Below, in pieces: positions 9,001 through 31,600 of a DNA stretch of 64,000 nucleotides (position 1 is its first letter; every line of letters begins with the position of its first letter). A program made the translations under genes and the position numbers. The notes beneath the pieces are model-generated. The model had not been told where the DNA came from, did no database searches, and saw nothing but the letters and a program-made list of their open reading frames with translations. Source of the stretch: Balanoglossus misakiensis (Eukaryota; Animalia; Hemichordata); contig CM082594.2 of assembly GCA_040954595.2 (NCBI GenBank), forward strand, positions 948,247 through 1,012,246, read 5' to 3'.

Positions 9001-12000
9001 TTTTGTAAGTGAAGCCTGACTGTCGCCTGTCTTAGGTCACCACTTCAGAAGAGGTCTTACCCGTCATTGGCACAAACAGTCTCAGGAAGTAAGCTTTCAG
9101 CTTACCAATGTAGCTATTATATTTTCCACTTTTTGTAAGTGAAGCCTGACTGTCGCCTGTCTTAGGTCACCACTTCATAAGCGGTCTTACCCGTCATTGG
9201 CACAAACAGTCTCAGGAAGCAAGCTTTCAGCCTACCAATGTAGCTATTATATTTTCCACTTTTTGTAAGTGAAGCGTGACTGTCGCCTGTCTTATGTCAC
9301 CACTTCATAAACGGTATTACCCGTCATTGGTACAAACAGTCTCAGGAAGTAAGCTTTCAGCCTACCAATGTAGCTATTATATTTTCCACTTTTTGTAAGT
9401 GAAGCCTGAGTGTCGCCTGTCTTAGGTCACCACTTCATAAGAGGTCATACCCGTCATTGGCACAAACAGTCTCAGGAAGTAAGCTTTCAGCCTACCAATG
9501 TAGCTATTATATTTTCCACTTTTTGTAAGTGAAGCCTGACTGTCGCCTTTCTTAGGTCACCACTTCATAAGCGGTCTTACCCGTCATTGGCACAAACAGT
9601 CTCAGGAAGTAAGCTTTCAGCCTACCAATGTAGCTATTATATTTTCCACTTTTTGTAAGTGAAGCCTGAGTGTCGCCTGTCTTAGGTCACCACTTCATAA
9701 GAGGTCTTACCCGTCATTGGCACAAACAGTCTCAGGAAGTAAGCTTTCACCCTACCAATGTAGCTATTATATTTTCCACTTTTTGTAAGTGAAGCCTGAG
9801 TGTCGCCTGTCTTAGGTCACCACTTCATAAACGGTCTTACCCGTCATTGGCACAAACAGTCTCAGGAAGTAAGCTTTCAGCCTACCAATGTAGCTATTAT
9901 ATTTTCCACTTTTTGTAAGTGAAGCCTGAGTGTCGCCTGTCTTAGGTCACCACTTCATAAGAGGTCTTACCCGTCATTGCCACAAACAGTCTCAGGAAGT
10001 AAGCTTTCAGCCTACCAATGTAGCTATTATATTTTCCACTTTTTGTAAGTGAAGCCTGACTGTCGCCTTTCTTAGGTCACCATTTCATAAGCGGTCTTAC
10101 CCGTCATTGGCACAAACAGTCTCAGGAAGTAAGCTTTCAGCCTACCAATGTAGCTATTATATTTTCAACTTTTTGTAAGTGAAGCCTGACTGTCGCCAGT
10201 CTTAGGTCACCACTTCATAAGCGGTCTTACCCGTCATTGGCACAAACAGTCTCAGGAAGTTAGCTTTCAGCCTACTAATGTAGCTATTATATTTTCCACT
10301 TTTTGTAAGTGAAGCCTGACTGTCGCCTGTCTTAGGTCACCACTTCATAAGCGGTCTTACCCGTGATTGGCACAAACAGTCTCAGGAAGTAAGCTTTCAG
10401 CCTACCAATGTAGCTATTTTATTTTCCACTTTTTGTAAGTGAAGCCTGACTGTCGCCTGTCTTAGGTCACCACTTCATAAGAGGTCTTACCCGTCATTGG
10501 CACAAACAGTCTCAGGAAGTAAGCTTTCAGCCTACCAATGTAGCTATTATATTTTCCACTTTTTGTAAGTGAAGCCTGACTGTCGCCTGTCTTAGGTCAC
10601 CACTTCATAAGCGGTCTTACCCGTCATTGGCACAAACAGTCTCAGGAAGCAAGCTTTCAGCCTACCAATGTAGCTATTATATTTTCCACTTTTTGTAAGT
10701 GAAGCCTGACTGTCGCCTGTCTTAGGTCAACACTTCATAAGCGTTCTTACCCGTCATTGGCACAAACAGTCTCAGGAAGTAAGCTTTCAGCCTACCAATG
10801 TAGCTATTTTATTTTCCACTTTTTGTAAGTGAAGCCTGACTGTCGCCTGTCTTAGGTCACCACTTCATAAGAGGTCTTACCCGTCATTGGCACAAACAGT
10901 CTCAGGAAGTAAGCTTTCAGCCTACCAATGTAGCTATTATATTTTCCACTTTTTGTAAGTGAAGCCTGACTGTCGCCTGTCTTAGGTCACCACTTCATAA
11001 GCGGTCTTACCCGTCATTGGCACAAACAGTCTCAGGAAGCAAGCTTTCAGCCTACCAATGTAGCTATTATATTTTCCACTTTTTGTAAGTGAAGCCTGAC
11101 TGTCGCCTGTCTTAGGTCAACACTTCATAAGCGTTCTTACCCGTCATTGGCACAAACAGTCTCAGGAAGTAAGCTTTCAGCCTACCAATGTAGCTTTTCT
11201 ATTTTCCACTTTTTGTAAGTGAAGCCTGACTGTCGCCTGTCTTAGGTCACCACTTCATAAGCGGTCTTACCCGTCATTGGCACAAACAGTCTCAGGAAGT
11301 AAGCTTTCAGCCTACCAATGTAGCTCTTATTTTTTCCACTTTTTGTAAGTGAAGCCTGACTGTCGCCTGTCTTAGGTCACCACTTCATAAGCGGTCTTAC
11401 CCGTCATTGGCACAAACAGTCTCAGGAAGTAAGCTTTAAGCCTACCAATATAGCTATTATATTTTCCACTTTTTGTAAGTGAAGCCTGACTGCCGCCTGT
11501 CTTAGGTCACCACTTCATAAGCGTTCTTACCCGTCATTGGCACAAACAGTCTCAGGAAGTAAGCTTTCAGCCTACCAATGTAGCTTTTGTATTTTCCACT
11601 TTTTGTAAGTGAAGCCTGACTGTCGGCTGTCTTAGGTCACCCCTTCATAAGCGGTCTTACCCGTCATTGGCACAAACAGTCTCAGGAAGTAAGCTTTCAG
11701 CCTACCAATGAAGCTATTGTATTTTCCACTTTTTGTAAGTGAAGCCTGACTGTCGCATGTCTTAGGTCACCACTACATAAGCGGTCTTACCCGTCATTGG
11801 CACAAAAAGTCTCAGGAAGTAAGCTTTCAGCCTACCAATGAAGCTATTGTATTTTCCACTTTTTGTAAGTGAAGCCTGACTGTCGCCTGTCTTAGGTCAC
11901 CACTTCATAAGCGGTCTTACCCGTCATTGGCACAAACAGTCTCAGGGAGTAAGCTTTCAGCCTGCCAATGTAGCTATTGTATTTTCCACTTTTTGTAAGT

Positions 12001-15000
12001 GAAGCCTGACTGTCGCCTGTCTTAGGTCACCACTTCATAAGCGGTCTTACCCGTCATTGGCACAAACAGTCTCAGGAAGTAAGCTTTCAGCCTACCAATG
12101 AAGCTATTGTATTTTCCACTTTTTGTAAGTGAAGCCTGACTGTCGCCTGTCTTAGGTCACCACTTCATAAGCGGTCTTACCCGTCATTGGCACAAACAGT
12201 CTCAGGGAGTAAGCTTTCAGCCTGCCAATGTAGCTATTGTATTTTCCACTTTTTGTAAGTGAAGCCTGACTGTCGCCTGTCTTAGGTCACCACTTCATAA
12301 GCGGTCTTACCCGTCATTGGCACAAACAGTCTCAGGAAGTAAGCTTTCAGCCTGCCAATTTAGCTATTGTATTTTCCACTTTTTGTAAGTGAAGCCTGAC
12401 TGTCGCCTGTCTTAGGTCACCACTTCATAAGCGGTCTTACCCGTCATTGGCACAAACAGTCTCAGGAAGTAAGCTTTCAGCCTGCCAATGTAGCTATTGT
12501 ATTTCCCACTTTTTGTAAGTGAAGCCTGACTGTCGCCTGTCTTAGGTCACCACTTCATAAGCGGTCTTACCTGTCATTGGCACAAACAGTCTCAGGAAGT
12601 AAGCTTTCAGCCTACCAATGTAGCTATTATATTTTCCACTTTTTGTAAGTGAAGCCTGACTGTCGCCTGTCTTAGGTCACCACTTCATAAGCGGTCTTAC
12701 CCGTCATTGGCACAAACAGTCTCAGGAAGTAAGCTTTCAGCCTACCAATGAAGCTATTGTATTTTCCACTTTTTGTAAGTGAAGCCTGACTGTCGCCTGT
12801 CTTAGGTCACCACTACATAAGCGGTCTTACCCGTCATTGGCACAAACAGTCTCAGGAAGTAAGCTTTCAGCCTACCAATGAAGCTATTGTATTTTCCACT
12901 TTTTGTAAGTGAAGCCTGACTGTCGCCTGTCTTAGGTCACCACTTCATAAGCGGTCTTACCCGTCATTGGCACAAACAGTCTCAGGGAGTAAGCTTTCAG
13001 CCTGCCAATGTAGCTATTGTATTTTCCACTTTTTGTATGTGAAGTCTGACTGTCGCCTGTCTTAGGTCACCACTTCATAAGCGGTCTTACCCGTCATTGG
13101 CACAAACAGTCTCAGGAAGTAAGCTTTCAGCCTGCCAATGTAGCTATTGTATTTCCCACTTTTTGTAAGTGAAGCCTGACTGTCGCCTGTCTTAGGTCAC
13201 CACTTCATAAGCGGTCTTACCCGTTATTGGCACAAACAGTCTCAGGAAGTAAGCTTTCAGCCTACCAATGTAGCTATTATATTTGCAACTTTTTGTAAGT
13301 GAAGCCTGACTGTCGCCTGTCTTAGGTCTCCACTTCATAAGCGGTCTTACCCGTCATTGGCACAAACAGTCTCAGGAAGTAAGCTTTCAGCCTACCAATG
13401 TAGCTATTATATTTTCCACTTTTTGTAAATGAAGCCTGACTGTCGCCTGTCTTAGGTCACCACTTCATAAGCGGTCTTACCCGTCATTGGCACAAACAGT
13501 CTCAGGAAGTAAGCTTTCAGCCTGCCAATGTAGCTATTGTATTTTCCACTTTTTATAAGTGAAGCCTGACTGTCGCCTGTCTTAGGTCACCACTTCATAA
13601 GCGGTCTTACCCGTCATTGGCACAAACAGTCTCAGGAAGTAAGCTTTCAGCCTGCCAATGTAGCTATTGTATTTTCCACTTTTTGTAATTGAAGCCTGAC
13701 TGTCGCCTGTCTTATGTCACCACTTCATAAGCGGTCTTACCTGTCATTGGCACAAACAGTCTCAGGAAGTAAGCTTTCAGCCTACCAATGTAGCTATTAT
13801 ATTTTCCACTTTTTGTAAGTGAAGCCTGACTGTCGCCTGTCTTAGGTCACCACTTCATAAGTGGTCTTACCCGTCATTGGCACAAACAGTCTCAGGAAGT
13901 AAGCTTTCAGCCTACCAATGTAGCTTTTATATTTTCCACTTTTTGTAGGTGAAGCCTGACTGTCGCCTGTCTTAGGTCACCACTTCATAAGCGGTCTTAC
14001 CCGTCATTGGCACAAACAGTCTCAGGAAGTAAGCTTTCAGCCTACCAATGTAGCTTTTATATTTTCCACTTTTTGTAGGTGAAGCCTGACTGTCGCCTGT
14101 CTTAGGTCACCACTTCATAAGCGGTCTTACCCGTCATTGGCACAAACAGTCTCAGGAAGTAAGCTTTCAGCCTACCAATGTAGCTATTATATTTTCCATT
14201 TTTTGTAAGTGAAGCCTGACTGTCGCCTGTCTTAGGTCACCACCTCATAAGCGGTCTTAACCGTCATTGGCACAAACAGTCTCAGGAAGTAAGCTTTCAG
14301 CCTACCAATGTAGCTATTATATTTTCCACTTTTTGTAAGTGAAGCCTGACTGTCGCCTGTCTTAGGTCACCATTTCATAAGCGGTCTTACCCGTAATTGG
14401 CACAAACAGTCTCAGGAAGTAAGCTTTCAGCCTACCAATGTAGCTATTATATTTTCCACTTTTTGTAAGTGAAGCCTGACTGTCGCCTGTCTTAGGTCAC
14501 CACTTCATAAGCGGTCTTACCCGTCATTGGCACAAACAGTCTCAGGAAGTAAGCTTTCAGCCTACCAATGTAGCTATTGTTTTGTAAGTGAAGCCTGACT
14601 GTCGCCTGTCTTAGGTCACCACTTCATAAGCGGTCTTACCCGTCATTGGAACAATCAGTCTCAGGAAGTAAGCTTTCAGCCTACCAATGTAGCTATTATA
14701 TTTTCCACTTTTTGTAAGTGAAGCCTGACTGTCGCCTGTCTTAGGTCACCATTTCATAAGCGGTCTTACCCGTCATTGGCACAAACAGTCTCAGGGAGTA
14801 AGCGTTCAGCCTACCAATGTAGCTATTATATTTTCCACTTTTTGAAAGTGAAGCCTGACTGTCGCCTGTCTTAGGTCACCACTTCATAAGCGGTCTTACC
14901 CGTCATTGGCACAAACAGTCTCAGGAAGTAAGCTTTCAGCCTGCCATTGTAGCTATTGTATTTTCCACTTTTTATAAGTGAAGCCTGACTGTCGCCTGTC

Positions 15001-18000
15001 TTAGGTCACCACTTCATAAGCGGTCTTACCCGTCATTGGCACAAACAGTCTCAGGAAGTAAGCTTTCAGCCTGCCAATGTAGCTATTGTATTTTCCACTT
15101 TTTGTAATTGAAGCCTGACTGTCGCCTGTCTTATGTCACCACTTCATAAGCGGTCTTACCCGTCGTTGGCACAAACAGTCTCAGGAAGTAAGCTTTCAGC
15201 CTACCAATGTAGCTATTATATTTTCCACTTTTTGTAAGTGAAGCCTGACTGTCGCCTGTCTTAGGTCACCACTTCATAAGTGGTCTTACCCGTCATTGGC
15301 ACAAACAGTCTCAGGAAGTAAGCTTTCAGCCTACCAATGTAGCTTTTATATTTTCCACTTTTTGTAGGTGAAGCCTGACTGTCGCCTGTCTTAGGTCACC
15401 ACTTCATAAGCGGTCTTACCCGTCATTGGCACAAACAGTCTCAGGAAGTAAGCTTTCAGCCTACCAATGTAGCTATTATATTTTCCATTTTTTGTAAGTG
15501 AAGCCTGACTGTCGCCTGTCTTAGGTCACCACCTCATAAGCGGTCTTAACCGTCATTGGCACAAACAGTCTCAGGAAGTAAGCTTTCAGCCTACCAATGT
15601 AGCTATTATATTTTCCACTTTTTGTAAGTGAAGCCTGACTGTCGCCTGTCTTAGGTCACCACTTCATAAGCGGTCTTACCCGTAATTGGCACAAACAGTC
15701 TCAGGAAGTAAGCTTTCAGCCTACCAATGTAGCTATTATATTTTCCACTTTTTGTAAGTGAAGCCTGACTGTCGCCTGTCTTAGGTCACCACTTCATAAG
15801 CGGTCTTACCCGTCATTGGCACAAACAGTCTCAGGAAGTAAGCTTTCAGCCTACCAATGTAGCTATTGTTTTGTAAGTGAAGCCTGACTGTCGCCTGTCT
15901 TAGGTCACCACTTCATAAGCGGTCTTACCCGTCATTGGAACAATCAGTCTCAGGAAGTAAGCTTTCAGCCTACCAATGTAGCTATTATATTTTCCACTTT
16001 TTGTAAGTGAAGCCTGACTGTCGCCTGTCTTAGGTCACCATTTCATAAGCGGTCTTACCCGTCATTGGCACAAACAGTCTCAGGGAGTAAGCTTTCAGCC
16101 TACCAATGTAGCTATTATATTTTCCACTTTTTGAAAGTGAAGCCTGACTGTCGCCTGTCTTAGGTCACCACTTCATAAGCGGTCTTACCCGTCATTGGCA
16201 CAAACAGTCTCAGAAAGTAAGCTTTCAGCCTACCAATGTAGCTATTATATTTTCCACTTTTTGTAAGTGAAGCCTGACTGTCGCCTGTCTTAGGTCACCA
16301 CTTCATAAGCGGTTTTACCCGTCATTGGCACAAACAGTCTCAGGAAGTAAGCTTTCAGCCTACCAATGTAGCTATTATATTTTCCACTTTTCGTAAGTGA
16401 AGCCTGACTGTCGCCTGTCTTAGGTCACCACTTCATAAGCGGTTTTACCCGTCATTGGCACAAACAGTCTCAGGAAGTAAGCTTTCAGCCTACCAATGTA
16501 GCTATTATATTTTCCACTTTTTGTAAGTGAAGCCTGACTGTCGCCTGTCTTAGGTCACCACTTCATAAGCGGTCTTACCCGTCATTGGCACAAACAGTCT
16601 CAGGAAGTAAGCTTTCAGCCTACCAATGTAGCTATTATATTTTCCACTTTTTGTAAGTGAAGCCTGACTGTCGCCTGTCTTAGGTCACCACTTCATAAGT
16701 GGTCTTACCCGTCATTGGCACAAACAGTCTCAGGAAGTAAGCTTTCAGCCTACCAATGTAGCTTTTATATTTTCCACTTTTTGTAGGTGAAGCCTGACTG
16801 TCGCCTGTCTTAGGTCACCACTTCATAAGCGGTCTTACCCGTCATTGGCACAAACAGTCTCAGGAAGTAAGCTTTCAGCCTACCAATGTAGCTATTATAT
16901 TTTCCACTTTTTGTAAGTGAAGCCTGACTGTCGCCTGTCTTTGGTCACCACTTCATAAGCGGTCTTACCCGTCATTGGCACAAACAGTCTCAGGAAGTAA
17001 GCTTTCAGCCTACCAATGTAGCTATTATATTTTCCACTTTTTGTAAGTGATGCCTGACTGTCGCCTGTCTTAGGTCACCACTTCATAAGCGGTCTTACCC
17101 GTCATTGGCACAAACAGTCTCAGGAAGTAAGCTTTCAGCCTACCAATGTAGCTATTATATTTTCCACTTTTTGTAAGTGAAGCCTGACTGTCGCCTGTCT
17201 TAGGTCACCACTTCATAAGTGGTCTTACCCGTCATTGGCACAAACAGTCTCAGGAAGTAAGCTTTCAGCCTACCAATGTAGCTTTTATATTTTCCACTTT
17301 TTGTAGGTGAAGCCTGACTGTCGCCTGTCTTAGGTCACCACTTCATAAGCGGTCTTACCCGTCATTGGCACAAACAGTCTCAGGAAGTAAGCTTTCAGCC
17401 TACCAATGTAGCTATTATATTTTCCACTTTTTGTAAGTGAAGCCTGACTGTCGCCTGTCTTTGGTCACCACTTCATAAGCGGTCTTACCCGTCATTGGCA
17501 CAAACAGTCTCAGGAAGTAAGCTTTCAGCCTACCAATGTAGCTATTATATTTTCCACTTTTTGTAAGTGATGCCTGACTGTCGCCTGTCTTAGGTCACCA
17601 CTTCATAAGCGGTTTTACCCGTCATTGGCACAAACAGTCTCAGGAAGTTTGCTTTCAGCCTACCAATGTAGCTATTGTATTTTCCACTTTTTGTAAGTGA
17701 AGCCTGACTGTCGCCTGTCTTAGGTCACCACTTCATAAGCGGTCTTACCCGTCATTGGCACAAACAGTCTCAGGAAGTAAGCTTTCAGCCTACCAATGTA
17801 GCTATTATATTTTCCACTTTTTGTAAGTGAAGCCTGAGTGTCGCCTGTCTTAGGTCACCACTTCATAAGAGGTCTTACCCGTCATTGGCACAAACAGTCT
17901 CAGGAAGTAAGCTTTCAGCCTACCAATGTAGCTATTATATTTTCCACTTTTTGTAAGTGAAGCCTGAGTGTCGCCTGTCTTAGGTCACCACTTCATAAGA

Positions 18001-18570
18001 GGTCTTACCCGTCATTGGCACAAACAGTCTCAGGAAGTAAGCTTTCAGCCTACCAATGTAGCTATTATATTTTCCACTTTTTGTAAGTGAAGCCTGACTG
18101 TCGCCTGTCTTAGGTCACCACTTCATAAGCGATCGTACCCGTCATTTGCACAAACAGTCTCAGGAAGTAAGCTTTCAGCCTACCAATGTAGCTATTATAT
18201 TTTCCACTTTTTGTAAGTGAAGCCTGACTGTCGCCTGTCTTAGGTCACCACTTCATAAGCAGTCTTACCCGTCATTGGCACAAACAGTCTCAGGAAGTAA
18301 GCTTTCAGCCTACCAATGTAGCTATTATATTTTCCACTTTTTGTAAGTGAAGCCTGACTGTCGCCTGTCTTAGGTCACCACCTTATAAGCGGTCTTACCC
18401 GTCATTGGCACAAACAGTCTCAGGAAGTAAGCTTTCAGCCTACCAATGTAGCTATTATATTTTCCACTTTTTGTAAGTGAAGCCTGACTGTCGCCTGTCT
18501 TAGGTCACCACCTTATAAGCGGTCTTACCCGTCATTGGCACAAACAGTCTCAGGAAGTAAGCTTTCAGCC
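1..18570. repeat. 130-bp tandem satellite, 143 monomers, continues beyond the window start
   Basis: Monomer CCTACCAATGTAGCTATTAT...CTCAGGAAGTAAGCTTTCAG repeats every 130 bp with few substitutions. Most monomers carry one AAGCTT (HindIII) site. There are 11-bp deletions at ~14580 and ~15869. The array ends abruptly at ...TTTCAGCC 18570. Confidence 0.99.
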
Positions 18571-19419: not shown

Positions 19420-20776
19420 TCAATCAATCAATCAATCAATCAAAACAAACATTTATAAAGCGCCAGAATCAATAACAATGTTATTTCCAAAGGCGCTGAA
19501 AGTATAACATCAGTGTTCGTAGGCTTTGAGAAATAGAAATGTCTTGAGTTTTTGTTTGAAAATGTTGAGACTAGAAGCCTGTTGAATGTCAGATGGCAGA
19601 GAATTCCAAAGTTGTGGCGCGACAACGGAAAAGGCACGTCCACCATATGTTTTGAGTCTGTACTTTGGTACACACAACTGGTTCCTTGAGCTGGAGCGCA
19701 GAGCACGACTAGGCTTATATGGCTTGATCAGATCCTGAATGTAGACTGGGGCAAGACGGTTGAGAGCCTTGTATGTTAGTAGTAGAATTTTGTAGTCGAG
19801 TCTGTGTCGAGCTGGCAACCAATGGAGACTATGAAGAACTGGTGATATGTGGTTTGATTTCCTCGTGCGGGTAATGATTCTGGCTGCTGTATTTTGTGCT
19901 TTTTGAAGTAGATTAATACTGGATTCAGAAAGTCCGTACAGCAATGCATTGCAGTAATCCAGTTTAGATGACAAAACGGCATGTATTACTGTGAGACAAG
20001 TTTCCTTACTGAGATATCTTCTGATGGATCCAATTCGACGTAAGTTGGCATATATCGACTGACAGGTTATTTGAATATGCTTGTGAAACATGTGAGTATT
20101 GTCGAAGGTAACTCCAATGTTGCGGGCAGATTTAACTGGTTGTATTTTACTGGAGCCAATGGTGATACTGTCGAAAGGAACTGGAGAATGGTTAAACTTT
20201 GAACGGATGAGAATAACTTCTGTTTTGGAGTCGTTGAGTTGCAACATGTTTTCCGTCATCCAGTGCTTGATGTCACAGAAACCGGCCTCGATGGAACTGA
20301 CAGCGGTTGATGAATCATTTTGGGAGAAGGACAGGTATAATTGATTGTCATCTGCATATTGGTGAAATTCCAGGTCATGTTGTCGAATAAGTTTCCCTTG
20401 TGGAGAGATGTATATGGTGAACAAAAGTGGTCCGAGGACTGACCCTTGTGGTACGCCACACTGAAGAGGACGGGGTTTACTGGTGACATTTCCAATAATT
20501 ACTGACTGATGTCTGTCCATGAGATACGATTCGAACCATTTGAGGGCGACATCTGTAATGCCAAGGTCCGAGAGCCGGTTTAACAGTAAGCTGTGGTCAA
20601 TGGTGTCAAATGCAGCTGAAAGATCCAAAAGGACAAGTATGACACACTTTCCGGAGTCGAGAGACATGCAAATGTCGTCATGAACTTTCAGGAGAGCGGT
20701 TTCAGTACTGTGGTATTGTCTGTATGCAGATTGTAGTGGTTCCAATAGTGAGTTAGCGGTGAGATAAGTGGTGAGT
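19420..20776 (-). mobile_element. 5'-truncated L2/CR1-group LINE: RT plus C-terminal domain, 3' UTR and (TTGA)n tail
   Basis: Open frame 20776-19510 carries LEPLQSAYR, STETAL, LLDLSAAFDTIDH, GVPQGSVLGP, QYADD and LHWLP. The 3' UTR has an AGCGCC...GGCGCT stem. (TCAA)6 at 19420-19443 on the + strand is the tail. Confidence 0.95.
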
Positions 20777-20986
20777 CCCATGGCGTTGCAGTGAAACTGG
20801 GACATAAAGGTCCAAACAATGAGGCTGACCACATGGTTACGGCTCCAATTACGGCAACTGTGAAGTGTAGTGGAACTGCAGATGACTGACGTTGCCCAGG
20901 GCAACGGCGAACCAGGACCCTGGAGGGCGGAGCAGCGGGACCTGATTGACAGGAGCTGTACATAGCAGTTGTGAACATAGTATATG

Positions 20987-23030
20987 TATGGCGCGTAATC
21001 GAGGCCAAAATTAACTCCTCACTTTTTGAGTGAAAACCATTTGAATCGGACTCAACCTCATTGGCTTTGAAGGTCGACACTTTTGAATCGGAGGACCACA
21101 TTCGTTTTGAGCTGACACGCATTTGAATCGGACTCCCAAGCATTTGATTTGAAGGTCGACACTTTTGAATCGCCGGACCACATTTGTTTTGAGCTGACAC
21201 GCATTTGAATCGGACTCAACCTCATTTGAGTTGGGACAAACCATTTTTGACTTGGGGTACACTGCATTTGATTTGAGTGACGATACTTTTGAGTTGAGAC
21301 AAACTGTTTTTGAATTTGAGTCCACCGCGTTCCATTTGAGGCTCAACTTGTGAATGGGACACCATCTCATTTGATTTGACTCAGGTTTTTCTTCCAATTG
21401 ATTGTACCAGAATGTGGCTCTCCGTAAAACAACCCTTCTTTGTAGCGATTAGCTTTGCCCAGACAACATGAAACGTCACAAAGTGTCATGCCCTATGTCA
21501 CATGACGTCATTAATATATACAGGTGTTTTCTGTTACTGAACTGGGGGGTCTGGAAGGACTGACCCGGAACCATATATAGGTTGTGTGTTTCATATCAGT
21601 AATAGGTTCCCGCCCGTAGGCAACGCATGTAAGTTCCCAAAAAGTTATATTAGAAACAATGAGACAGGCCTACAAGAGAAAAAAAAAGTAATGTCTATTT
21701 CTACTTTTCAAAAGAAAACATACCCAGTATGCATAGTGATCGGACACAGGGCATGACGCTTTGTGACGTTTCATGTTGTCTGGGCAAAGCTTATCGCTAC
21801 AAAGAAGGGTTGTTTTACGGAGAGCCACATTCTGGTACAATCAATTGGAAGAAAAACCTGAGTCAAATCAAATGAGATGGTGTCCCATTCACAAGTTGAG
21901 CCTCAAAAGGAACGCGGTGGACTCAAATTCAAAAACCAGGGTTCGTACGCTCCTGGAAACTCCCGGAATTTGAAACCCCTCCTGGAAACTCCTGAAATCT
22001 CCTGGAAATTCAAAATTTCTCCTTGAAACTCCTGGAAAACCGCGAGTCACAATCGCATTTCACCGGATCGTGAAACAGTACGCGTTGCCCATTTCACTCA
22101 GCGCACCAGTTATCTTTAGACAGGCGTCCTATAAATAGTATCATTGACGTAGTAATGCACAAATTGCAACAACTAACGCAGCTCAGCATTCCGGTCGCAA
22201 CAAAATATCTAAAACTTGACAAAAGATGTAGCAACTTTTGTATGCAGACGACCGCGGCAGACACCCGTGAGATCGATGTTCAAGGGCAATTAGTGACGTC
22301 AAAATGAAGCAAAAAAGGCAGACGTTTTTGTGTGTTTTTTTCAGCAGCAAAGCAGTAATTTCCATCGGTAATTTGTCGATTTTATCACGACAGAAATCAT
22401 TGCTTTAGGGACCGTTCTTTTTTTACGGCCGAGGGTGTGGGGGGGGTGTCACTTAAATTTTAGCCAAATATATTAAATGATTTGGGAACCTAGGAGATCT
22501 CTTGGTGAAAATTGTTTTACTAGGCCTTCATGGGGAGGTCATTGAAATTTGTACTATCACAGTGAATGTAACAGTAATAGTAAAGTTTTTTGTTGCGTAA
22601 AACATCCTGGAAAATGGCATTTTTACCAAAAAAACTCCTGGAAAATTACTGGAAATCTCCTGGAAACTCCTGTAATTTTGAATTGCTCTAGGTGTATGAA
22701 CCCTGAAAAACGGTTTGTCTCAACTTAAAAGTATCGTCACTCAAATCACATGCAGTGTACCCCAAGTCAAAAATGGTTTGTCCCAACTCAAATGAGGTTG
22801 AGTCCGATTCAAATGCGTGTCAGCTCAAAACAAATGTGGTCCGGCGATTCAAAAGTGTCGACCTTCAAAGCCAATGAGGTTGAGTCCGATTCAAATGCGT
22901 GTCAGCTCAAAACGAATGTGGTCCTCCGATTCAAAAGTGTCGACCTTCAAATCAAATGCTTGGGAGTCCGATTCAAATGCGTTTCACTCAAAAAGTGAGG
23001 TGTTAAATTTGGCCTCGATTACGCGCCATA
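20987..23030. mobile_element. Non-autonomous foldback DNA element with ~510-bp inverted arms and TATGG...CCATA ends (IS3EU-like termini)
   Basis: Ends TATGGCGCGTAATCGAGGCCAAA / TTTGGCCTCGATTACGCGCCATA. Left arm is 20987-~21500; right arm is ~21742-21936 plus 22706-23030. Direct repeat GTATATG flanks it at 20980-20986 and 23031-23037. Arms contain ~82-bp subterminal repeats. Confidence 0.9.
21937..22705. mobile_element. hAT-like MITE with 6-bp TSD, nested in the foldback right arm
   Basis: TIR CAGGGTTCGTAC / GTATGAACCCTG, TSD AAAAAC at 21931-21936 and 22706-22711, subterminal CCTGGAAA repeats. The uninterrupted left arm shows the empty site. Confidence 0.9.
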
Positions 23031-23741
23031 GTATATGAAATAATTTAAAATAGTCATTGCTCTCTGGGTCCATCATTTTCAGTAGAAGTGACCTGATTTC
23101 ACATCAATAGTTTACCACCCGTCATTTCCAGCTAATTTCATGTAGTACAAAACTCCTATACAACATAATGACAATTCTAGAACCTTTTTCTGCTGGTTGG
23201 GCCGACAGACTAACACTAGTGGTTCTAAAAAGAAACTTCCATAACAACCTGTACACTTGACGCGTTCAAGTCAAGGAAGACCTAACCCATTCCAAATATG
23301 CAAATTAGGAAAAGACGCATACATGCATTCCTTGCATCCCCAGAGACACACACAGGAAATCAAGTGAGTGCGGCCACTAGCTGGAAGAGCTGAATTCAAT
23401 GCATTGCCTTGCGATGTTCGTTATACAGGGGGGTGATGATCAATGAACAGAACAGCGGTCCACTTTCACGAGTTGTAGTGCACTGATCGTGGCAAGTTGA
23501 TCATTGCAAAACAAACGACTATGTTAGATAGCAGTGCTTCACAAGTTTGGCTAATTTGTTTGAAAATCGTCTCGCCAAACACAACCTTTTTCTCGCATTT
23601 GCGATTTGGCGAGCGGGTAGCGAAAACACTGTTGGCTAATCCGTTCCGATTTCTGTCACCGTTCCAATTCTTCCTCAACACCTCAAAGCTACACACCCCT
23701 ACTAGAAAATAGTATGAATTCTTGACGGACGGAAGTAGTAG

Positions 23742-26700
23742 CAGTCGAGAAACTGGGTAGTGAATTTGCATATTTTATCATCGCCGGAGCCTCGCTTTCG
23801 AACACGCGGGAGCTGCAAACATGGCGTTCGCTACCCTCGCCATTGTCATGTTAACACATTTTTAGAAGTGGTTTATCTCAGTTAAAACCCCGAAAGAAAA
23901 AGAAAAATCAACTTTTCTGAGGTATTATAAAGTAATTATTGGGATAACGAAAAAATCCGCCATTTTTAGCGTCATTTTCTTGCAATTCAAGACCTATCTC
24001 GGCACCAGTCATTACGGTGATTTATCACGCTACGACGGGCCAACTTTCAGCGAACGGGTACGGGGTCAAGGAGGTCGTGAGCCATCACGATATTTCAATC
24101 AAATGATTTGGAAAGTTCAAGGGTACTTCAGTCCAAATATGGGAGTAGTGCCGCCTTGCAAACGCAAACGACGCAGTGTTGACTGATCCAGGTCACTTCT
24201 TCCGGGTTTCGATGTTGCGCGCGATGTGTATGCGTCGAAGTTAGTCATGCGTACAGGTCTGTAGGTTCCCGGCGTTAATTAAAGCCGCCCGGCCGCGAAC
24301 CACACGGTGTGAGCTAAAGCCCAACCTGCACGACCCAGTCCACCAGGGCTACAATTATTGCGGCTACGGTTATGCGAAATACTGACTCTCCTTGCAAGTC
24401 ACCGCGTATGTTGCATGCCCCCCCCCTACCCCCCCCCCGCCACGTACAGCCACACTGAGTTAGTAACATTGGCAAATACATTTGCTAGTTTTACCCAGCA
24501 ATTTCATCATCACTGTCAAGGTGCTATCATCAACTTCGAGAACATTTTCTTCTGGTAAATCATATTCTTGTTCATCCTCAATAATTTCTTCTATTTCACA
24601 ATTTGTGATTTCATTATCATCATTATTTGTTTCTTCTTCAATAATTTCATCAGTTTCTGTCTGCAGTTCCCTGCCCTTGTTATTGTATTGTTCACACAGT
24701 TCAGGCAATTACAGCCTGGGCCACACATCATGGCCTTCTTTTTGCATTTACATGTATTATTCCTGCATCCTGTTTTCTTACATTTACACCCTTTTGTGTA
24801 AAACATCACACGCTCTTGAACCTTCTGCATATTTTCCACAGAATCCCACAGTATATTTATTTTTCCATTTTCCACATTGTATCCTGAGTTTTCATAAGAA
24901 GGAAGTGTAATGTGATGTCGGTCAGATTGTGACCAATAACATGGGTTCTCCAACAACCAGTTTGTCCCCAACATGCATTGCATTGCTGTTTTGATTAAAA
25001 TTATTTCATCCAGCTCAGCCTCTGGATTAAAATTATCAAATTATCTTGAAGTTTACATATAATTGTTTGATAACCCTGTGTCACTTCAGTGACAATTGTT
25101 TTCTTTACATTTTTCTACTGTGCGGTACAAAGACATGTAGCACTTTTTACACAGTGTGCTAGTTTCATCCAGTTTTAATCCAGGATAGTCCCTATGTTCA
25201 GTAAAGTGCTCCATTAGTAACTCTGGATTGTGGGGATATTTTAGAGTAGAAGAGGTCAAGCGTTTATGACAATGGCTAGAAATCTGGTTTTATCATCCAC
25301 CCAGGTTTTGTGGCAAGAGACATTTCCACAAATGTGACACGTTTTGTCTTTTTGATGAGGTGCCTGTTCGGTACTACCCTGGGCTTGTGCTTCAAATTAT
25401 TTTTCTACACATATTCTTCAGCTATTGCATAGACAACCAGATGGAGATAAATTCATTTCTTTTACAACCCAATCTTTGAAATTGTCTGGCTTATTTACTG
25501 TACCCGGTATGTGGTACCATCTTGGAGTTGATGATATGCTACACTTTTTTTGGGTCCACATTTTTCTTTGTCAGGGTGAGCCTGCTGACTTAATGGAAGA
25601 ACTCCTCCAAACCCACTAATATAAATGTATAAATGCATCCCCCCTTTTGTTGGTATATTTATTTGTCCATACAAGGGTTTTCCCTGAAAGAATAATTTGA
25701 AACTATCAGTATTCAAATTTAATTCCTCAGATATTACATTTTTCAAGGAGCTGACATATGGATCTGTGAGCCGAAAAAAAATACTCATGTGAATTTAGAT
25801 GAACAATTATGTCACATCCACTTGCAATCTTTTTATCAGATTGAATTGCCTGGAATTTTGATTTGAGTCTACAGAATCTGCTTTGTATGTCACATAACAG
25901 GAGTAAGGCTTGACTGCATTGTGACAAACGTATTTTAATCATGGTTTCTGCCATAATAATGGACTTGTCTTTTATAAATTCTTGGCGACGCTTATAGCAA
26001 TGATGTTTTAGAGGTCCTGACATTTTGCACACAGACTGCAGCAATTTTTTAAACTCTTGCAGTTGATTACACACTGTTTTTATTTGTTTCACTACATTAT
26101 TTTTTACTTTACTCTTATCCCGCATTTGTTAATACAAATATAATATCGATGCTCTGCCAGTCGTTAAAATGTGGAAATATGGTACTTGTAAGCTTTGTAA
26201 TTATTAAATGAAGGCTTGCTAGCAGTTTTAAGCACTTTTAAAATATTTGCAACTTTTGTTTTTATTTCAGTTGAGTTTGTATACAGAACCTTGTTTTTTT
26301 CCACTTCAGAGCAGGTTTTCTTAATTTGCAACAGTGCATTTTTACTGACAGAGTTTATGCGTGAACGATGCACCCTCCTTGTGCACAAAGACAAGGATTG
26401 ACTCCACATACAATCACCATTTTTATGCGTTTTATGGTTATCTGTAGTACAAACATGTACTTAGTAGTATAACCCTGGAAGCCAACAATGCACCAATAAA
26501 TCCGAAAAAAATCCACTTCTCTGGTAAAACAATAGCAAAGTGATAGCTATGTTAATGTGAGACGAAAATATACACGATTTAGTCAAACATAAGTCCAACG
26601 AATCATGCGTGGATGCACCTCAGTGACACGATCACGATCCGATGAGAGAGTAAACAATCAGCCGCCATATTGGATTTTGCTGGCGTCGACCACCCAAAAC

Positions 26701-27122
26701 ATACTCAAATTCAATGGCCCGAAACTCCACTTTGGGAAGCTTGAGCCAAAACGAAACGATATCCGTTCATATAGATATAAAACTAATACAAAAAGCACAC
26801 TTGAAACAATTTTATGCTTGCAAACGGAAACGACGCAGTGTTTATTTTACCACATTCGCTAGACGTCGCTTACAAATGATATCAGAGATCGAACAGAAAT
26901 ACGATAAATTTTCCACTTTCAACACGATCGGACGATAGGTTACGTCTATCAAACCTGAGGGACGCAGTTTGGTGGCACAAATCTCACCTTTTGGTGTAGA
27001 AAAAGACGATTTTCTGAAACTGAAAGAATACACCAACGGTTCTCGAAGTAATGGTGGCGCTGTTGAAATTCAAAGTAAAATCTCATTAACATATGCAAAT
27101 TCACTACCCAGTTTCTCGACTG
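23742..27122 (-). mobile_element. Internally deleted Academ-like DNA transposon
   Basis: Perfect 32-bp TIR CAGTCGAGAAACTGGGTAGTGAATTTGCATAT at 23742-23773 and 27091-27122. 4-bp TSD GTAG. Internal Cys-rich transposase relics. Confidence 0.8.
24460..26409 (-). pseudogene. Decayed transposase frame: N-terminal region, ubiquitin-like domain, Zn fingers, then C-terminal Cys8/CXC domain and acidic tail; catalytic core not seen
   Basis: Minus-strand fragments: LFFQGKPL..HLYIYISGFGG; CSISSTPRWYH..CLCNS*RIC; CHIC; LCKKCY; ILWDSVEN..RV..GCKCKKTGCRNNTCKCKKKAMMCGPGCNCLNC. Multiple stops and frameshifts. Confidence 0.75.
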
Positions 27123-27719
27123 GTAGCTCATACCTAACTTGACAGACTCCTTTGTTTACACTTCGGAGCCAAAAAGGTTGGTGCGGGGGGGGGGGGGGTG
27201 TGTCTACATTGATGCACGTGGGGATATGAGAAACAAAATACTTTTTTTACAAGAAAAATCTATGCCGTCTCTCTGCCTGTATGTTTCTACTACAAGCTCT
27301 TATAGAAACTAGATTATGCAATAAGTTTGCAAGACTGTATGGAAGAATATCCTGAACTCAACATTAAAGTGAAGGGGTCGTCGCGCCGCGTTTGTTTATA
27401 AACATTACAATTCATCCACAACAAATTAGATCATTCTTAGAATGAACGAAGCAGCCAACTGTAGTGTAGACTGAGCATGGCAGCAACTGAAGATCCTAGT
27501 AGGTGGTGGCGACTGCAGTGGGGTTTGCACTGGTATGGGAGGGCATATTCTCATCAAGGTGGGACACCCTCGCGGCGCGACGACCCCTTCCCTACTGTTG
27601 CTGAAAAATACTTGTATATGAAAGTTGAAACAGTGATAGTTGCACATGAGGTATCTGATATGGCATTAACATAAACATAACAAAATAAAGTTTTGAATGT
27701 TCCTTGCAATCTGCAATTT

Positions 27720-28660
27720 CATGAAAATATTCTCTGTACTGTTAATAAAGTATAATGTCTGCTCCTAATTCTGCAAAACGTGTCATACTAAAATGTTATA
27801 CCATTAGTGACACTATGACTAATAATAAAATATCATACTCTCCCCTTATGTATTTCAGCTGTTAATGAAATGATATTCCCATCCCTATCTTTGTACTGGT
27901 ACTAAGCTATAAGTAAAATGTTACACTTATCCCAAGCATAGTACTGGTATTATAACTGGTAGTCCAATGCCATGCCCATCCCCTTGCTGTGTTAATTGAT
28001 AATAAAGTGTCATACCCTGCCCTTGTTCTGTACTGTTGCTGTTAATAAAATGTTATGACAATCCGTCATTGTACTACATGTAATACTTCACGGTAAGTAC
28101 AATATCATGCACATCCCTTGCTTTTTAGTAAAATGCCATGCCTTCCCCTAGTTCTGTACTATAACTGTTAGTCAAATGTTATGTCCAACACTCACTTTGT
28201 ACTATAAGTTACCAATAATAAAAATGTCATGCCCTCCCTGCTTCTCTATAGTTGTTCATAAAATGTTACTCCCACCCCAAGGGTAGTAATGGTACTTGAA
28301 CTGTTAGTAACATATCATGCCCATGTTCCTAGTTATGAACTGAAACGTTTAGGCTAATCAACTGTAATGGTCATGTACTTGGTTTAGTAAAATGTCTGCC
28401 AATGTCTTGCCTAGTTCTACAACTCATAATAAAATGCCATGCCCTCCCCTAGTTCCGTACTGTAGGGGTCAATAAAACGCATTATCTGGCCACCCCTAGC
28501 TCTTAAGTTGATCGTATGCCATGCCGAAACCTAGTTCTGTATTGTGACTTAGAGCTGCGATGGTCCTATAAAGCTTATAAAACTTGTGCACACTTCAAAT
28601 AGGCCGAAAATGTCATGTGTACCGACTGATAATAAACTGTCATTTCATCCCAGCTATGCA
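27720..28660. repeat. Degenerate ~40-bp minisatellite block, re-copied at ~29818, ~31491 and ~33339
   Basis: Recurrent AAAATG(T/C)CATGCCC..CCCTAGTTCTGTACT motif. Confidence 0.85.
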
Positions 28661-31600
28661 CCCAAAAAATGACGTGGCATTAACACTAGAGGACGTGTAC
28701 TGATCTGAGTGAATCAGATCCCGTGAGGAGTACGGTGCCCAGAGTACACGTGTACTAGTAGAGAAATGCCAAGTGTTGCTACATCTTTGCGCTTCTCCCG
28801 CCATTGCTCTCTGGAAAATAGGAGTGTGGTCGAGCGAACTGGTGCGAGCGGAAAGTCGTGTTGCGACCGTCGGTGAGGCGAATTAAGACACAGCGCTAAT
28901 AATAGTGTCTGTAACGACTATCACACCAAAACTCATTTACAGTAAATATAAAAACAAACTACGTCGGAGAAGTGTTTCGACGTGTCTTCGTTCTCGAGGA
29001 GCCATTTGTATCTGTATTTGCATACCAGAAAGCCACGCCTACCAGCCTCGTTCGCGGGTGACTTGTTTGTAATTGGCAAAGGCGAGTTAGTCATGTGCTT
29101 AGTTTGTTGGGTGTCAATGTAATCGTCCATGTTAACTTATTTGGTACAATTCGAGACATATGCACTCAAAAATGATGTGGCATTAAACACTAGAGGACGT
29201 GTACAGATCTGAGTGAATCAGATCCCGTGAGGTGTACGGTGCCCAGAGTACACGTGTACTAGTAGAGAAATGCCAAGTGTTGCTACATCTTCGCGCTTCG
29301 CCCGCCATTGCTCTCCGGAAAATAGAAGTGTGGTCGAGCGAACACGTGCGAGCGGAAAGTCGTGTTGCGACCGTCGGTGAGGCGAATTAAGACACAGCGC
29401 TAATAATAGTGTCTGTAACGACTATCACACCAAAACTCATTTACAGTAAATATAAAAACAGACTACGTCGGAGAAGTGTTTCGACGTGTCTTCGTTCTCG
29501 AGGAGCCATTTGTATCTGCATTTGCATACCAGAAAGCCACGCCTTCCAGCCTCGTTCGCGGGTGACTTGTTTGTAATTGCCAAAGGCGAGTTAGTCATGT
29601 GCTTAGTTTGTTGGGTGTCAATGTAATCGTCCATGTTAACTCATTTGGTACAATTCGAGACATATGCACTCAAAAATGATGTGGCATTAAACACTAGAGG
29701 ACGTGTACTGATCTGAGTGAATCAGATCACGTGAGGAGTACGGTGCCCAGAGTACACGTGTCCTAGTAAAGAAATGCCAAATGTTGCTACATCTTCGCGC
29801 TTCGCCCGCCAAGGTCGCCATGCCCATCCCCTTGCTGTGTTAATTGATAATAAAATGTCATACCCTGCCCTTGTTCTGTACTGTTGCTGTTAATAAAATG
29901 TTATGACAATCCCTCATTGTACTACATGTAATACTTCACGGTAAGTACAATATCATGCACATCCCTTGCTTTTTAGTAAAATGCCATGCCTTCCCCTAGT
30001 TCTGTACTATAACTGTTAGTCAAATGTCATGTCCAACACTCACTTTGTACTATAAGTTACCAATAATAAAAATGTCATGCCCTCCCTGCTTCTCTATAGT
30101 TGTTCATAAAATGTTACTCCCACCCCAAGGGTAGTAATGGTACTTGAACTGTTAGTAACATATCATGCCCATGTTCCTAGTTATGAACTGAAACGTTTAG
30201 GCTAATCAACTGTAATGGTCATGTACTTGGTTTAGTAAAATGTCTGCCAATGTCTTGCCTAGTTCTACAACTCATAATAAAATGCCATGCCCTCCCCTAG
30301 TTCCGTACTGTAGGGGTCAATAAAACGCATTATCTGGCCACCCCTAGCTCTTAAGTTGATCGTATGCCATGCCGAAACCTAGTTCTGTATTGTGACTTAG
30401 AGCTTAGATGGTCCTATAAAGCTTATAAAACTTGTGCACACTTCAAATAGGCCGAAAATGTCATGTGTACCGACTGATAATAAACTGTCATTTCATCCCA
30501 GCTATGCACCCAAAAAATGACGTGGCATTAACACTAGAGGACGTGTACTGATCTGAGTGAATCACAGCGCTAATAATAGTGTCTGTAACGACTATCACAC
30601 CAAAACTCATTTACAGTAAATATAAAAACAAACTACGTCGGAGAAGTGTTTCGACGTGTCTTCGTTCTCGAGGAGCCATTTGTATCTGTATTTGCATACC
30701 AGAAAGCCACGCCTACCAGCCTCGTTCGCGGGTGACTTGTTTGTAATTGGCAAAGGCGAGTTAGTCATGTGCTTAGTTTGTTGGGTGTCAATGTAATCGT
30801 CCATGTTAACTTATTTGGTACAATTCGAGACATATGCACTCAAAAATGATGTGGCATTAAACACTAGAGGACGTGTACAGATCTGAGTGAATCAGATCCC
30901 GTGAGGTGTACGGTGCCCAGAGTACACGTGTACTAGTAGAGAAATGCCAAGTGTTGCTACATCTTCGCGCTTCGCCCGCCATTGCTCTCCGGAAAATAGA
31001 AGTGTGGTCGAGCGAACACGTGCGAGCGGAAAGTCGTGTTGCGACCGTCGGTGAGGCGAATTAAGACACAGCGCTAATAATAGTGTCTGTAACGACTATC
31101 ACACCAAAACTCATTTACAGTAAATATAAAAACAGACTACGTCGGAGAAGTGTTTCGACGTGTCTTCGTTCTCGAGGAGCCATTTGTATCTGCATTTGCA
31201 TACCAGAAAGCCACGCCTTCCAGCCTCGTTCGCGGGTGACTTGTTTGTAATTGCCAAAGGCGAGTTAGTCATGTGCTTAGTTTGTTGGGTGTCAATGTAA
31301 TCGTCCATGTTAACTCATTTGGTACAATTCGAGACATATGCACTCAAAAATGATGTGGCATTAAACACTAGAGGACGTGTACTGATCTGAGTGAATCAGA
31401 TCACGTGAGGAGTACGGTGCCCAGAGTACACGTGTCCTAGTAAAGAAATGCCAAATGTTGCTACATCTTCGCGCTTCGCCCGCCAAGGTCGCCATGCCCA
31501 TCCCCTTGCTGTGTTAATTGATAATAAAATGTCATACCCTGCCCTTGTTCTGTACTGTTGCTGTTAATAAAATGTTATGACAATCCCTCATTGTACTACA

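What the first reader, a model, noticed from the sequence alone, without database searches (positions are those of the whole stretch)
25603..25813. Ubiquitin-like domain ending in Gly-Gly embedded in an Academ-like transposase
Removing one base from the A8 run at ~25774-25781 joins two minus-strand ORFs into DIIVHLNSHEYFFRLTDPYVSSLKNVISEELNLNTDSFKLFFQGKPLYGQINIPTKGGMHLYIYISGFGG. This follows the ubiquitin pattern (helix, RLIFAGKQL-like strand, LHLVLRLRGG-like end) and directly precedes the Zn-finger region. Inference: a transposon polyprotein that host deubiquitinases or Ubl proteases could cleave after GG to release or regulate the transposase. I do not know of this being described for Academ.
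Basis: partly seen in the sequence, partly recalled or inferred. Interest (0 to 1): 0.72.

Follow-up and report, generated by a model that had tools for sequence, protein, structure and literature searches.

The report
Ubiquitin-fold leader on an Academ transposase
A broken copy of an animal cut-and-paste jumping gene (likely Academ type) encodes a domain predicted to fold like ubiquitin and ending in Gly-Gly just ahead of the transposase's zinc fingers, which may be a cut-off leader controlling the enzyme, although its tail lacks residues that host ubiquitin-cutting enzymes usually need.

Summary
Window 23742-27122 is a 3.4-kb internally deleted DNA transposon with 32-bp perfect ends and a 4-bp target duplication. 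The A8 run is A7 in the main contigs of both runs covering it, which opens one 210-aa frame through the domain. One relative was found, an acorn-worm protein (40% identical over the domain). It keeps S-G-x-G-G and runs in frame into zinc fingers and the N-half of an Academ-type transposase. Its predicted model matches ubiquitin (Foldseek probability 1.0; Z 10.3, rmsd 1.8 A) and puts the GG on ubiquitin's G75-G76. Fuller relatives share the CAGTC ends and 4-bp duplications and carry the DUF6589 core plus a CXC end, but no detectable ubiquitin-like domain. Best reading: a captured ubiquitin-fold leader, likely cut after GG by a non-canonical protease (0.45); rival, an uncut regulatory or degron module (0.35). 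Earlier scan notes report analogous GG leaders on Helitrons, not this element.

The parts
23742..27122 (-). Whole non-autonomous DNA transposon, 3381 bp, internally deleted (no DDE core or nuclease region retained)
   Evidence: of the query pieces from the near-complete relative L095, only the C-terminal one matches it
27091..27122 (-). 5' terminal inverted repeat, 32 bp, starts CAGTCG
23742..23773 (+). 3' terminal inverted repeat, 32 bp, identical
27123..27126 (.). 4-bp target-site duplication (GTAG on +), upstream copy
23738..23741 (.). 4-bp target-site duplication (GTAG on +), downstream copy
26107..26460 (-). Upstream open stretch (98 aa in the window, 118 aa with the runs' majority bases); no homology found
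25814..26128 (-). About 105-aa N-terminal extension in frame with the domain; no homology found
25603..25813 (-). Ubiquitin-like (beta-grasp) domain
   Evidence: Pfam PF00240 E=2.7e-4; homologue P0001; model and fold searches on the homologue
25774..25781 (.). A8 run; one base longer than in the main contigs of both covering runs, which shifts the frame in this copy
25603..25608 (-). Gly-Gly codons (tail I-S-G-F-G-G; I-S-G-K-G-G in P0001)
25552..25602 (-). Linker and conserved H-P-x-K-E-x-C-G-P start of the first zinc finger
25545..25551 (.). Approximate site of a second frame break, shared with the main contigs, that uncouples the domain from the zinc fingers
   Evidence: the exact site is inferred
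25089..25570 (-). Degraded Cys/His zinc-finger remnants in two frames
   Evidence: weak: z=4.0, 0 of 300 shuffles against P0001; profile from relatives E=2e-4 among 5 pieces but not significant against the whole window
24591..25040 (-). Transposase C-terminus with Tesmin/TSO1-like CXC (Cys-rich) domain at about 24794-24687
   Evidence: Pfam PF03638 E=1.2e-5, above cut-off; tblastn with L095 C-terminus E=6e-15
24463..24708 (-). Acidic tail in the next frame
   Evidence: similar acidic tails follow the CXC in relatives

Best explanation
This is a domain predicted to have the ubiquitin fold, encoded in an internally deleted, non-autonomous copy of a likely AcademX-type DNA transposon; in the intact transposase it likely acts as a removable leader that a cysteine protease would cut off after the Gly-Gly, freeing the zinc-finger/DDE/nuclease protein. 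Shown: element boundaries, the domain's sequence similarity to ubiquitin, the frameshift private to this copy, the GG in both domain-bearing sequences, and in-frame continuation into Academ-type zinc fingers in the acorn-worm relative. Predicted: the fold and the canonical position of the GG. Inferred: capture of a ubiquitin-like gene by one lineage, cleavage, and its purpose (a new N-terminus, timing or turnover of the transposase). Because the tail has Ser and Gly where ubiquitin has Arg72 and Leu73, the protease is more likely a relaxed or dedicated one (SENP/Ulp1-like or transposon-encoded, acting in trans) than a typical host USP. The copy in this window cannot make such a precursor.
For: (1) Model of the homologue's domain: mean pLDDT 74, about 80-88 over residues 1-70, beta-beta-alpha-beta-beta order; Foldseek 218 PDB matches at E<=0.001, the top 50 ranks all ubiquitin or ubiquitin-like, probability 1.00; VIA-align Z 10.3, rmsd 1.8 A over 68 residues to Dsk2 UBL. 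(2) In the structural alignments, ordinary ubiquitin chains end in step with the model (1tbe 72=72, 3h7p 75=75, 5zq5 76=76), which puts model G75-G76 on ubiquitin's di-glycine. The C-terminally retracted mutant 5oxi and the folding intermediate 9pl1 align two residues off (74=76), the register the sequence profile gives; an engineered variant, 8t2d, ends 70=74. (3) G-x-G-G is kept in 2 of 2 domain-bearing sequences at 40% identity and is followed by a low-confidence linker (pLDDT<50 at 73-85). (4) The first zinc-finger Cys is the 15th residue after the GG in the window and the 13th in P0001. In L095, which lacks the domain, the first Met of the long ORF lies 15 residues before that Cys, so a cut at GG would yield about the same N-terminus; L094 has S-F-G-G 10 residues before a Cys (suggestive only). 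(5) Precedents: SDE2 is cut after its UBL by USP5 (PMC13572447); pestiviruses use captured ubiquitin as a processing signal (PMC8310069 passages); Ginger1, Mutator and Helitron elements carry Ulp1 or OTU proteases (PMC2836005 passages).
Against: The positions matching Arg72 and Leu73 are Ser and Gly in both sequences under the structural register; in SDE2, R73A abolishes and L74A halves cleavage. Under the sequence register ubiquitin's G75-G76 align to G-F or G-K, so the canonical di-glycine is broken and the GG lies two residues further out. Two conserved glycines at 40% background identity are weak evidence (about 0.4 x 0.4 = 0.16 by simple arithmetic), and n=2. The residue after the GG differs (Val, Gly). 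Pfam scans of four long ORF pieces of L095 and one of L094 listed no protease family. The domain is internal here (about 105 aa upstream). It was not detected in 3 of 3 contaminated genomes holding relatives or in 14 related loci. No sequence was found with both the domain and a DDE core; P0001 ends before the core. The frame breaks after the GG in the window and in the main contigs. The model is of the homologue, from a 2-sequence alignment, and the five models ranged from pLDDT 74 to 39.
Confidence: 0.45

Rival explanations
1. The domain is an uncut, integral ubiquitin-like module (like those of Dsk2, Rad23, UHRF1 or a non-cleavable ubiquitin fusion). It would bind host ubiquitin receptors or the proteasome and so limit, localise or recruit repair factors to the transposase; the glycines are a flexible linker.
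For: Non-canonical tail in both registers; top structural matches include integral UBL domains (Dsk2, BAG1, UBL4A, NP95); internal position; downstream H-P-x-K-E-x-C-G-P is conserved as well as the GG, so the whole junction may be under structural constraint.
Against: The GG falls on ubiquitin's di-glycine by structure; the relative without the domain starts about where the cut would fall.
Confidence: 0.35
2. An ordinary host deubiquitinase (USP or UCH type) cuts it as it cuts ubiquitin-ribosomal fusions or SDE2. This is a sub-case of the best explanation.
For: Ubiquitin is the closest sequence and fold match; USP5 and USP16 accept divergent UBLs (PMC13572447 passages).
Against: No Arg at the Arg72 position and no Leu at the Leu73 position in either sequence; about 20% identity to ubiquitin.
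Confidence: 0.12
3. A captured passenger with no role: a ubiquitin-like fragment picked up once and drifting.
For: Not detected in fuller relatives; both carriers are or may be incomplete elements.
Against: The two carriers are 60% diverged yet keep the fold-forming residues and the reading frame into the zinc finger, which points to long purifying selection.
Confidence: 0.15
4. Chance resemblance or assembly artefact.
For: The Pfam score is below the curated cut-off; Atlas feature hits are only 0.87-0.90; single-sequence folding of a longer piece of the homologue failed (pLDDT 36).
Against: Independent homologue, fold searches, and sister contigs that restore the frame.
Confidence: 0.05

Closest known systems
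AcademX DNA transposons (Academ superfamily; Kapitonov and Jurka 2010, Kojima 2020; neither could be read here; TSD and nuclease statement from PMC10045372 passage)
   Same: 4-bp TSD; relatives with the same CAGTC termini carry zinc fingers, a DUF6589 DDE-type core, a FEN1/XPG-like stretch and a Cys-rich end in one reading direction.
   Different: An N-terminal ubiquitin-fold domain with a GG end, not found described in the papers searched; this copy has lost the core and nuclease.
SDE2/Sde2 ubiquitin-fold precursor (PMC13572447; passages and section 8 part 1 read)
   Same: Divergent ubiquitin fold fused in front of a functional protein, with a glycine-rich junction (GGKGG there; S-G-K-G-G-G in P0001).
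   Different: SDE2 keeps the Arg and Leu that USP5 reads; this tail does not. The downstream protein is a transposase.
Cytopathic pestivirus ubiquitin insertions (PMC8310069 passages)
   Same: A parasite captured ubiquitin-family sequence in front of its key enzyme; there it is a processing signal.
   Different: Those are recent, near-intact host ubiquitin inserts cut by host hydrolases; this domain is old and about 20% identical to ubiquitin.
Ulp1/OTU-bearing Ginger1, Mutator and Helitron transposons (PMC2836005 passages)
   Same: DNA transposons that carry parts of the ubiquitin/SUMO system.
   Different: They carry the protease; this element carries the ubiquitin-like substrate fold, and no protease was seen.
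Integral UBL domains (Dsk2, Rad23, UBL4A, UHRF1/NP95)
   Same: Same fold, top Z scores.
   Different: They generally lack a terminal di-glycine (recalled, from no call).

Membership tests
AcademX (Academ superfamily) | 3- or 4-bp target-site duplication | tested here: met
   4-bp TSD in the window and in L078, L094, L095; none seen at L097; criterion from PMC10045372 passage
AcademX (Academ superfamily) | Terminal inverted repeats shared with autonomous members | tested here: met
   32-bp TIR; the first 5-6 bases CAGTC(G) are shared with L095, L094, L078, L097. They diverge afterwards, so Repbase's 11-base terminal rule (PMC4455052) is not met against these distant relatives; no Repbase entry could be compared
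AcademX (Academ superfamily) | Academ DDE transposase core | tested here: inconclusive
   Deleted from this copy. Present in relative L095 as DUF6589, E=8.7e-9, above cut-off, linked through the window C-terminus (E=6e-15) and P0001 (E=3e-5). That DUF6589 is the Academ core comes from recall and an unchecked scan note; PMC10799480 does not mention it
AcademX (Academ superfamily) | XPG/FEN1-like nuclease after the core (XPG label recalled) | tested here: inconclusive
   Deleted here. A 3-sequence profile from relatives hits human EXO1 only at E=1.4 (two of three hits, GCDY motif); no Pfam hit
AcademX (Academ superfamily) | C-terminal Cys-rich zinc finger (Cys8 label recalled) | tested here: met
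   PF03638 above cut-off; matches relatives
Ubiquitin-like (beta-grasp) domain | Beta-grasp fold | tested here: met
   Predicted model of the homologue; the window's own joined domain was not folded
Ubiquitin-like (beta-grasp) domain | Pfam PF00240 above curated cut-off | tested here: not met
   21.1 bits against 25.4 for the truncated window ORF; 12.0-12.6 bits for P0001 pieces
DUB-processed ubiquitin-fold precursors (ubiquitin fusions, SDE2, FUBI) | Di-glycine at the end of the fold | tested here: inconclusive
   Met by structural register, shifted by two in the sequence register; the tail has low pLDDT
DUB-processed ubiquitin-fold precursors (ubiquitin fusions, SDE2, FUBI) | Arg72- and Leu73-equivalent tail residues | tested here: not met
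   Ser and Gly in both sequences; requirement in SDE2 from PMC13572447
DUB-processed ubiquitin-fold precursors (ubiquitin fusions, SDE2, FUBI) | Demonstrated cleavage after GG | not testable with these tools
   needs an experiment

The most novel reading that the evidence does not exclude
One lineage of Academ transposons makes its transposase as a precursor with a captured ubiquitin-fold leader whose last strand has slipped two residues and whose tail was re-extended to keep Gly-Gly at the canonical cutting distance. A non-canonical protease, possibly supplied in trans by Ulp1- or DUB-encoding transposons of the same genome, removes it and so licenses transposition.
Probability: 0.3. Interest if true: 0.78.

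Novelty: new variant of a known kind. Interest (0 to 1): 0.52.

Why it matters
DNA transposons are known to carry ubiquitin and SUMO proteases, and their substrates are mostly unknown. A transposase that carries the ubiquitin fold itself, with a GG at the cutting position, offers a concrete candidate substrate and a simple GG-versus-AA test of proteolytic control of transposition. Even if uncut, a built-in ubiquitin-like domain would be a new way for a transposase to engage the host proteasome or repair machinery. The copy in this window is a dead derivative, so the interest lies in its family.

Tried and rejected
No genome is held for the window, so copies were seen only as collapsed contigs of one sample; no RNA holder was listed. 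Protein searches: window ORF against longer proteins, 0 of 50 candidates; P0001 residues 25-310 against longer proteins, 0 of 269; P0001 at near length, only itself among 3122. Of 2 hits in the representatives search, P0002 (bacterial PPC/RHS repeats) was dropped as unrelated. The Atlas gave ubiquitin-family leads at 0.87-0.90 for the window ORF and nothing for P0001. Viral contigs: no relatives; 2 + 2 pattern matches were unrelated. Metagenome pattern scan: 28 loci, none related beyond the motif. Genome pattern scan: 4 of 47 loci matched the C-terminal ORF by tblastn, L070 was added by eye, and the rest were dropped. A wider search of 301 + 301 prokaryote assemblies found only the two already known. 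Single-sequence folding of P0001 1-185 failed and its Foldseek hits are meaningless. A ubiquitin-like domain in L061 or L094 was considered and not supported; the L061 stretch recurs inside a small inverted-repeat element. An adenovirus/Polinton-protease reading of I-x-G-x-G (consensus recalled, not checked) was considered and left as a lead only. NCBIfam gave nothing relevant. No complex prediction was run. The Kojima 2020 AcademH paper was not held, so a mention of this domain there or in Repbase Reports cannot be excluded.

Full report
The element. The finding lies in a 3381-bp DNA transposon at 23742-27122, bounded by identical 32-bp inverted repeats (2 matches, 0 in 100 shuffles) and a 4-bp duplication. 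Its coding remnants are on the minus strand: an upstream ORF, the ubiquitin-like segment, zinc-finger pieces, and a C-terminal ORF with a Tesmin/TSO1-like CXC domain above Pfam's cut-off (E=1.2e-5). Nothing matches the catalytic core or nuclease region of a fuller relative, so it is an internal-deletion derivative.

The observation. The segment 25813-25603 is split by the A8 run at 25774-25781. Contigs of two runs lack one A there (X1 depth 3123.5 of 5023.5; X2 390.2 of 390.2; X3 no cover). All three runs are one sample, possibly the window's source, and contigs collapse copies, so this shows that an in-frame form exists and probably predominates, not how many copies there are. With the runs' majority bases the frame is open for 210 aa, 26128-25498. 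A minor variant lacking one base at 25639 would break the frame before the GG (857.9 of 10703 and 161.6 of 1312.8). The frame then ends 35 codons after the GG, and the zinc fingers continue in another frame; the main contigs of both runs show no gap that repairs this.

Is it ubiquitin-like? The unjoined downstream ORF hits Pfam ubiquitin at E=2.7e-4 (below cut-off) and ubiquitin-family Atlas clusters at lead level. A search of 1.8 billion representatives gave 2 hits. One was unrelated; the other, P0001, is XP_077986832.1 of the acorn worm Glandiceps talaboti, 40% identical over the domain and the following H-P-x-K-E-x-C-G-P. A profile of the two finds ubiquitin chains throughout the PDB sequences (242 at E<=1). 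AlphaFold2 on the 2-row alignment, with P0001 residues 29-119 as the modelled chain, gave mean pLDDT 74 for the best of five models (range 74-39). Foldseek returned 218 matches at E<=0.001, led by ubiquitin at probability 1.00. VIA-align gave Z 10.3, rmsd 1.8 A over 68 residues (Dsk2 UBL) and Z about 10 for many ubiquitin chains. A single-sequence fold of a longer piece failed. The window's own joined domain was not folded.

Where is the GG? Both sequences end I-S-G-x-G-G. The sequence profile aligns ubiquitin's L-H-L motif to (M/L)-H-L and so puts G75-G76 on G-F or G-K, leaving the GG two residues further out. The structural alignments end in step for ordinary ubiquitin (72=72, 75=75, 76=76), which places the GG on G75-G76; the C-terminally retracted mutant 5oxi and the folding intermediate 9pl1 take the shifted register, and one engineered variant (8t2d) ends further off. 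These ranges give only first and last aligned residues, and the tail beyond residue 72 has pLDDT below 50, so the register is a prediction. In the structural register the Arg72 and Leu73 positions hold Ser and Gly. In SDE2, a natural ubiquitin-fold precursor, R73A prevents cleavage and L74A halves it (PMC13572447; I read passages and section 8 part 1). Either register therefore gives a tail that a typical USP would read poorly.

The family. A DNA pattern for the CXC end found 47 loci in prokaryote assemblies; 4 matched the window's C-terminal ORF (E 5e-20 to 3e-7) and look like animal DNA carried along in those assemblies. Searching those assemblies gave further copies. L095 (3056-9927, 6.9 kb) has CAGTCG ends and a 4-bp TSD and encodes zinc fingers, DUF6589 (E=8.7e-9), a nuclease-like stretch and the CXC end. 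L094 and L078 also have CAGTC ends with 4-bp TSDs; L097 has CAGTCG ends without a TSD. Of 9 loci scanned for terminal pairs, 2 gave such a pair with a TSD and 1 a TAGTC pair without. The window's C-terminus matches L095 at E=6e-15 and P0001's second half matches L095's N-half at E=3e-5 (21% over 221 aa). The nuclease-like stretch reaches human EXO1 only at E=1.4. AcademX is described as having a nuclease and 3- or 4-bp TSDs (PMC10045372 passage). The XPG and Cys8 labels are recalled, the DUF6589-Academ link comes from recall and an unchecked scan note, and the primary papers were not held. AcademX-type is thus likely, not proven. The window's own zinc-finger remnants match weakly.

Distribution of the domain. 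The two-sequence profile found no domain in 3 of 3 assemblies holding relatives or in 14 related loci; a two-sequence profile is insensitive and most of those elements are degraded. L095's long ORF has its first Met 15 residues before the first zinc-finger Cys, while that Cys is the 15th (window) and 13th (P0001) residue after the GG. The domain is therefore dispensable in the family, and a cut after GG would give about the N-terminus that L095 is predicted to have; its true start is inferred and introns are possible. L094 has S-F-G-G 10 residues before a Cys, with no sign of the fold upstream. P0001 stops before the DDE core, so no single sequence with both domain and core was seen.

Mechanism. 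I favour a removable leader cut after GG (0.45), more likely by a relaxed or dedicated protease than by an ordinary USP (0.12, counted within that). The main rival is an uncut ubiquitin-like module that engages ubiquitin receptors or the proteasome (0.35); a neutral passenger (0.15) and an artefact (0.05) fit less well. Precedents exist for each half: SDE2, pestivirus ubiquitin inserts (PMC8310069, passages) and Ulp1/OTU proteases in Ginger1, Mutator and Helitron elements (PMC2836005, passages). Unchecked scan notes report Ulp1- and deubiquitinase-bearing transposons in this same genome and GG leaders on Helitrons elsewhere; these are leads only.

Novelty. Five literature searches did not turn up a ubiquitin-like domain in an Academ or other DDE transposase: Academ + transposase + ubiquitin, 3 papers with 2 listed, and passages of one (PMC10799480) read and irrelevant; Academ + XPG + transposase, 0; DNA transposon + ubiquitin-like domain + transposase + zinc finger + Repbase, 0; transposable element + ubiquitin-like + diglycine + transposase, 2, listing only; transposons + Ulp1 + OTU + ubiquitin-like + Ginger, 3. 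PMC5751038, PMC4455052 and PMC10294476 were read as passages on Academ. Repbase Reports, Kojima 2020 and supplements were not seen and may bear on this. Verdict: a real, apparently undescribed accessory domain on a known kind of transposon, with the cleavage mechanism open.

Noticed in passing
window 1-18570: Long satellite of 130-bp units (142 overlapping matches at about 95-97% identity to the first).
   Followed up: no
window 19510-21018 (-): 5'-truncated non-LTR retrotransposon ORF with reverse transcriptase (RVT_1 E=5e-26), abutting the next element.
   Followed up: partly
window 20987-23030: Foldback-like element with 325-bp inverted arms containing 82-bp subrepeats and inner 201-bp arms at 21306-21936.
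   Followed up: no
window about 28640-31570: Repeated units of about 500 bp and larger with recurring short ORFs; no Pfam match for one tested ORF.
   Followed up: partly
window 23807-26976 and 24912-26001: Run X2 holds contigs that skip 3168 and 1088 bases of the element, suggesting a MITE-sized derivative and a derivative lacking the ubiquitin-like domain (the second has only 24 bases on its short side).
   Followed up: no
window 23742-23773 and 27091-27122: Each TIR contains ATGCAAAT, the octamer motif of POU factors (label recalled).
   Followed up: no
G001 and G002 (L055, L061, L066, L078, L094-L101): Two prokaryote assemblies of 10.4 and 16 Mb contain long contigs of animal-like DNA with Academ-type transposons, probably host contamination.
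   Followed up: partly
L095 3056-9927: Near-complete 6.9-kb AcademX-type element with few frame breaks; a useful reference for the family.
   Followed up: partly
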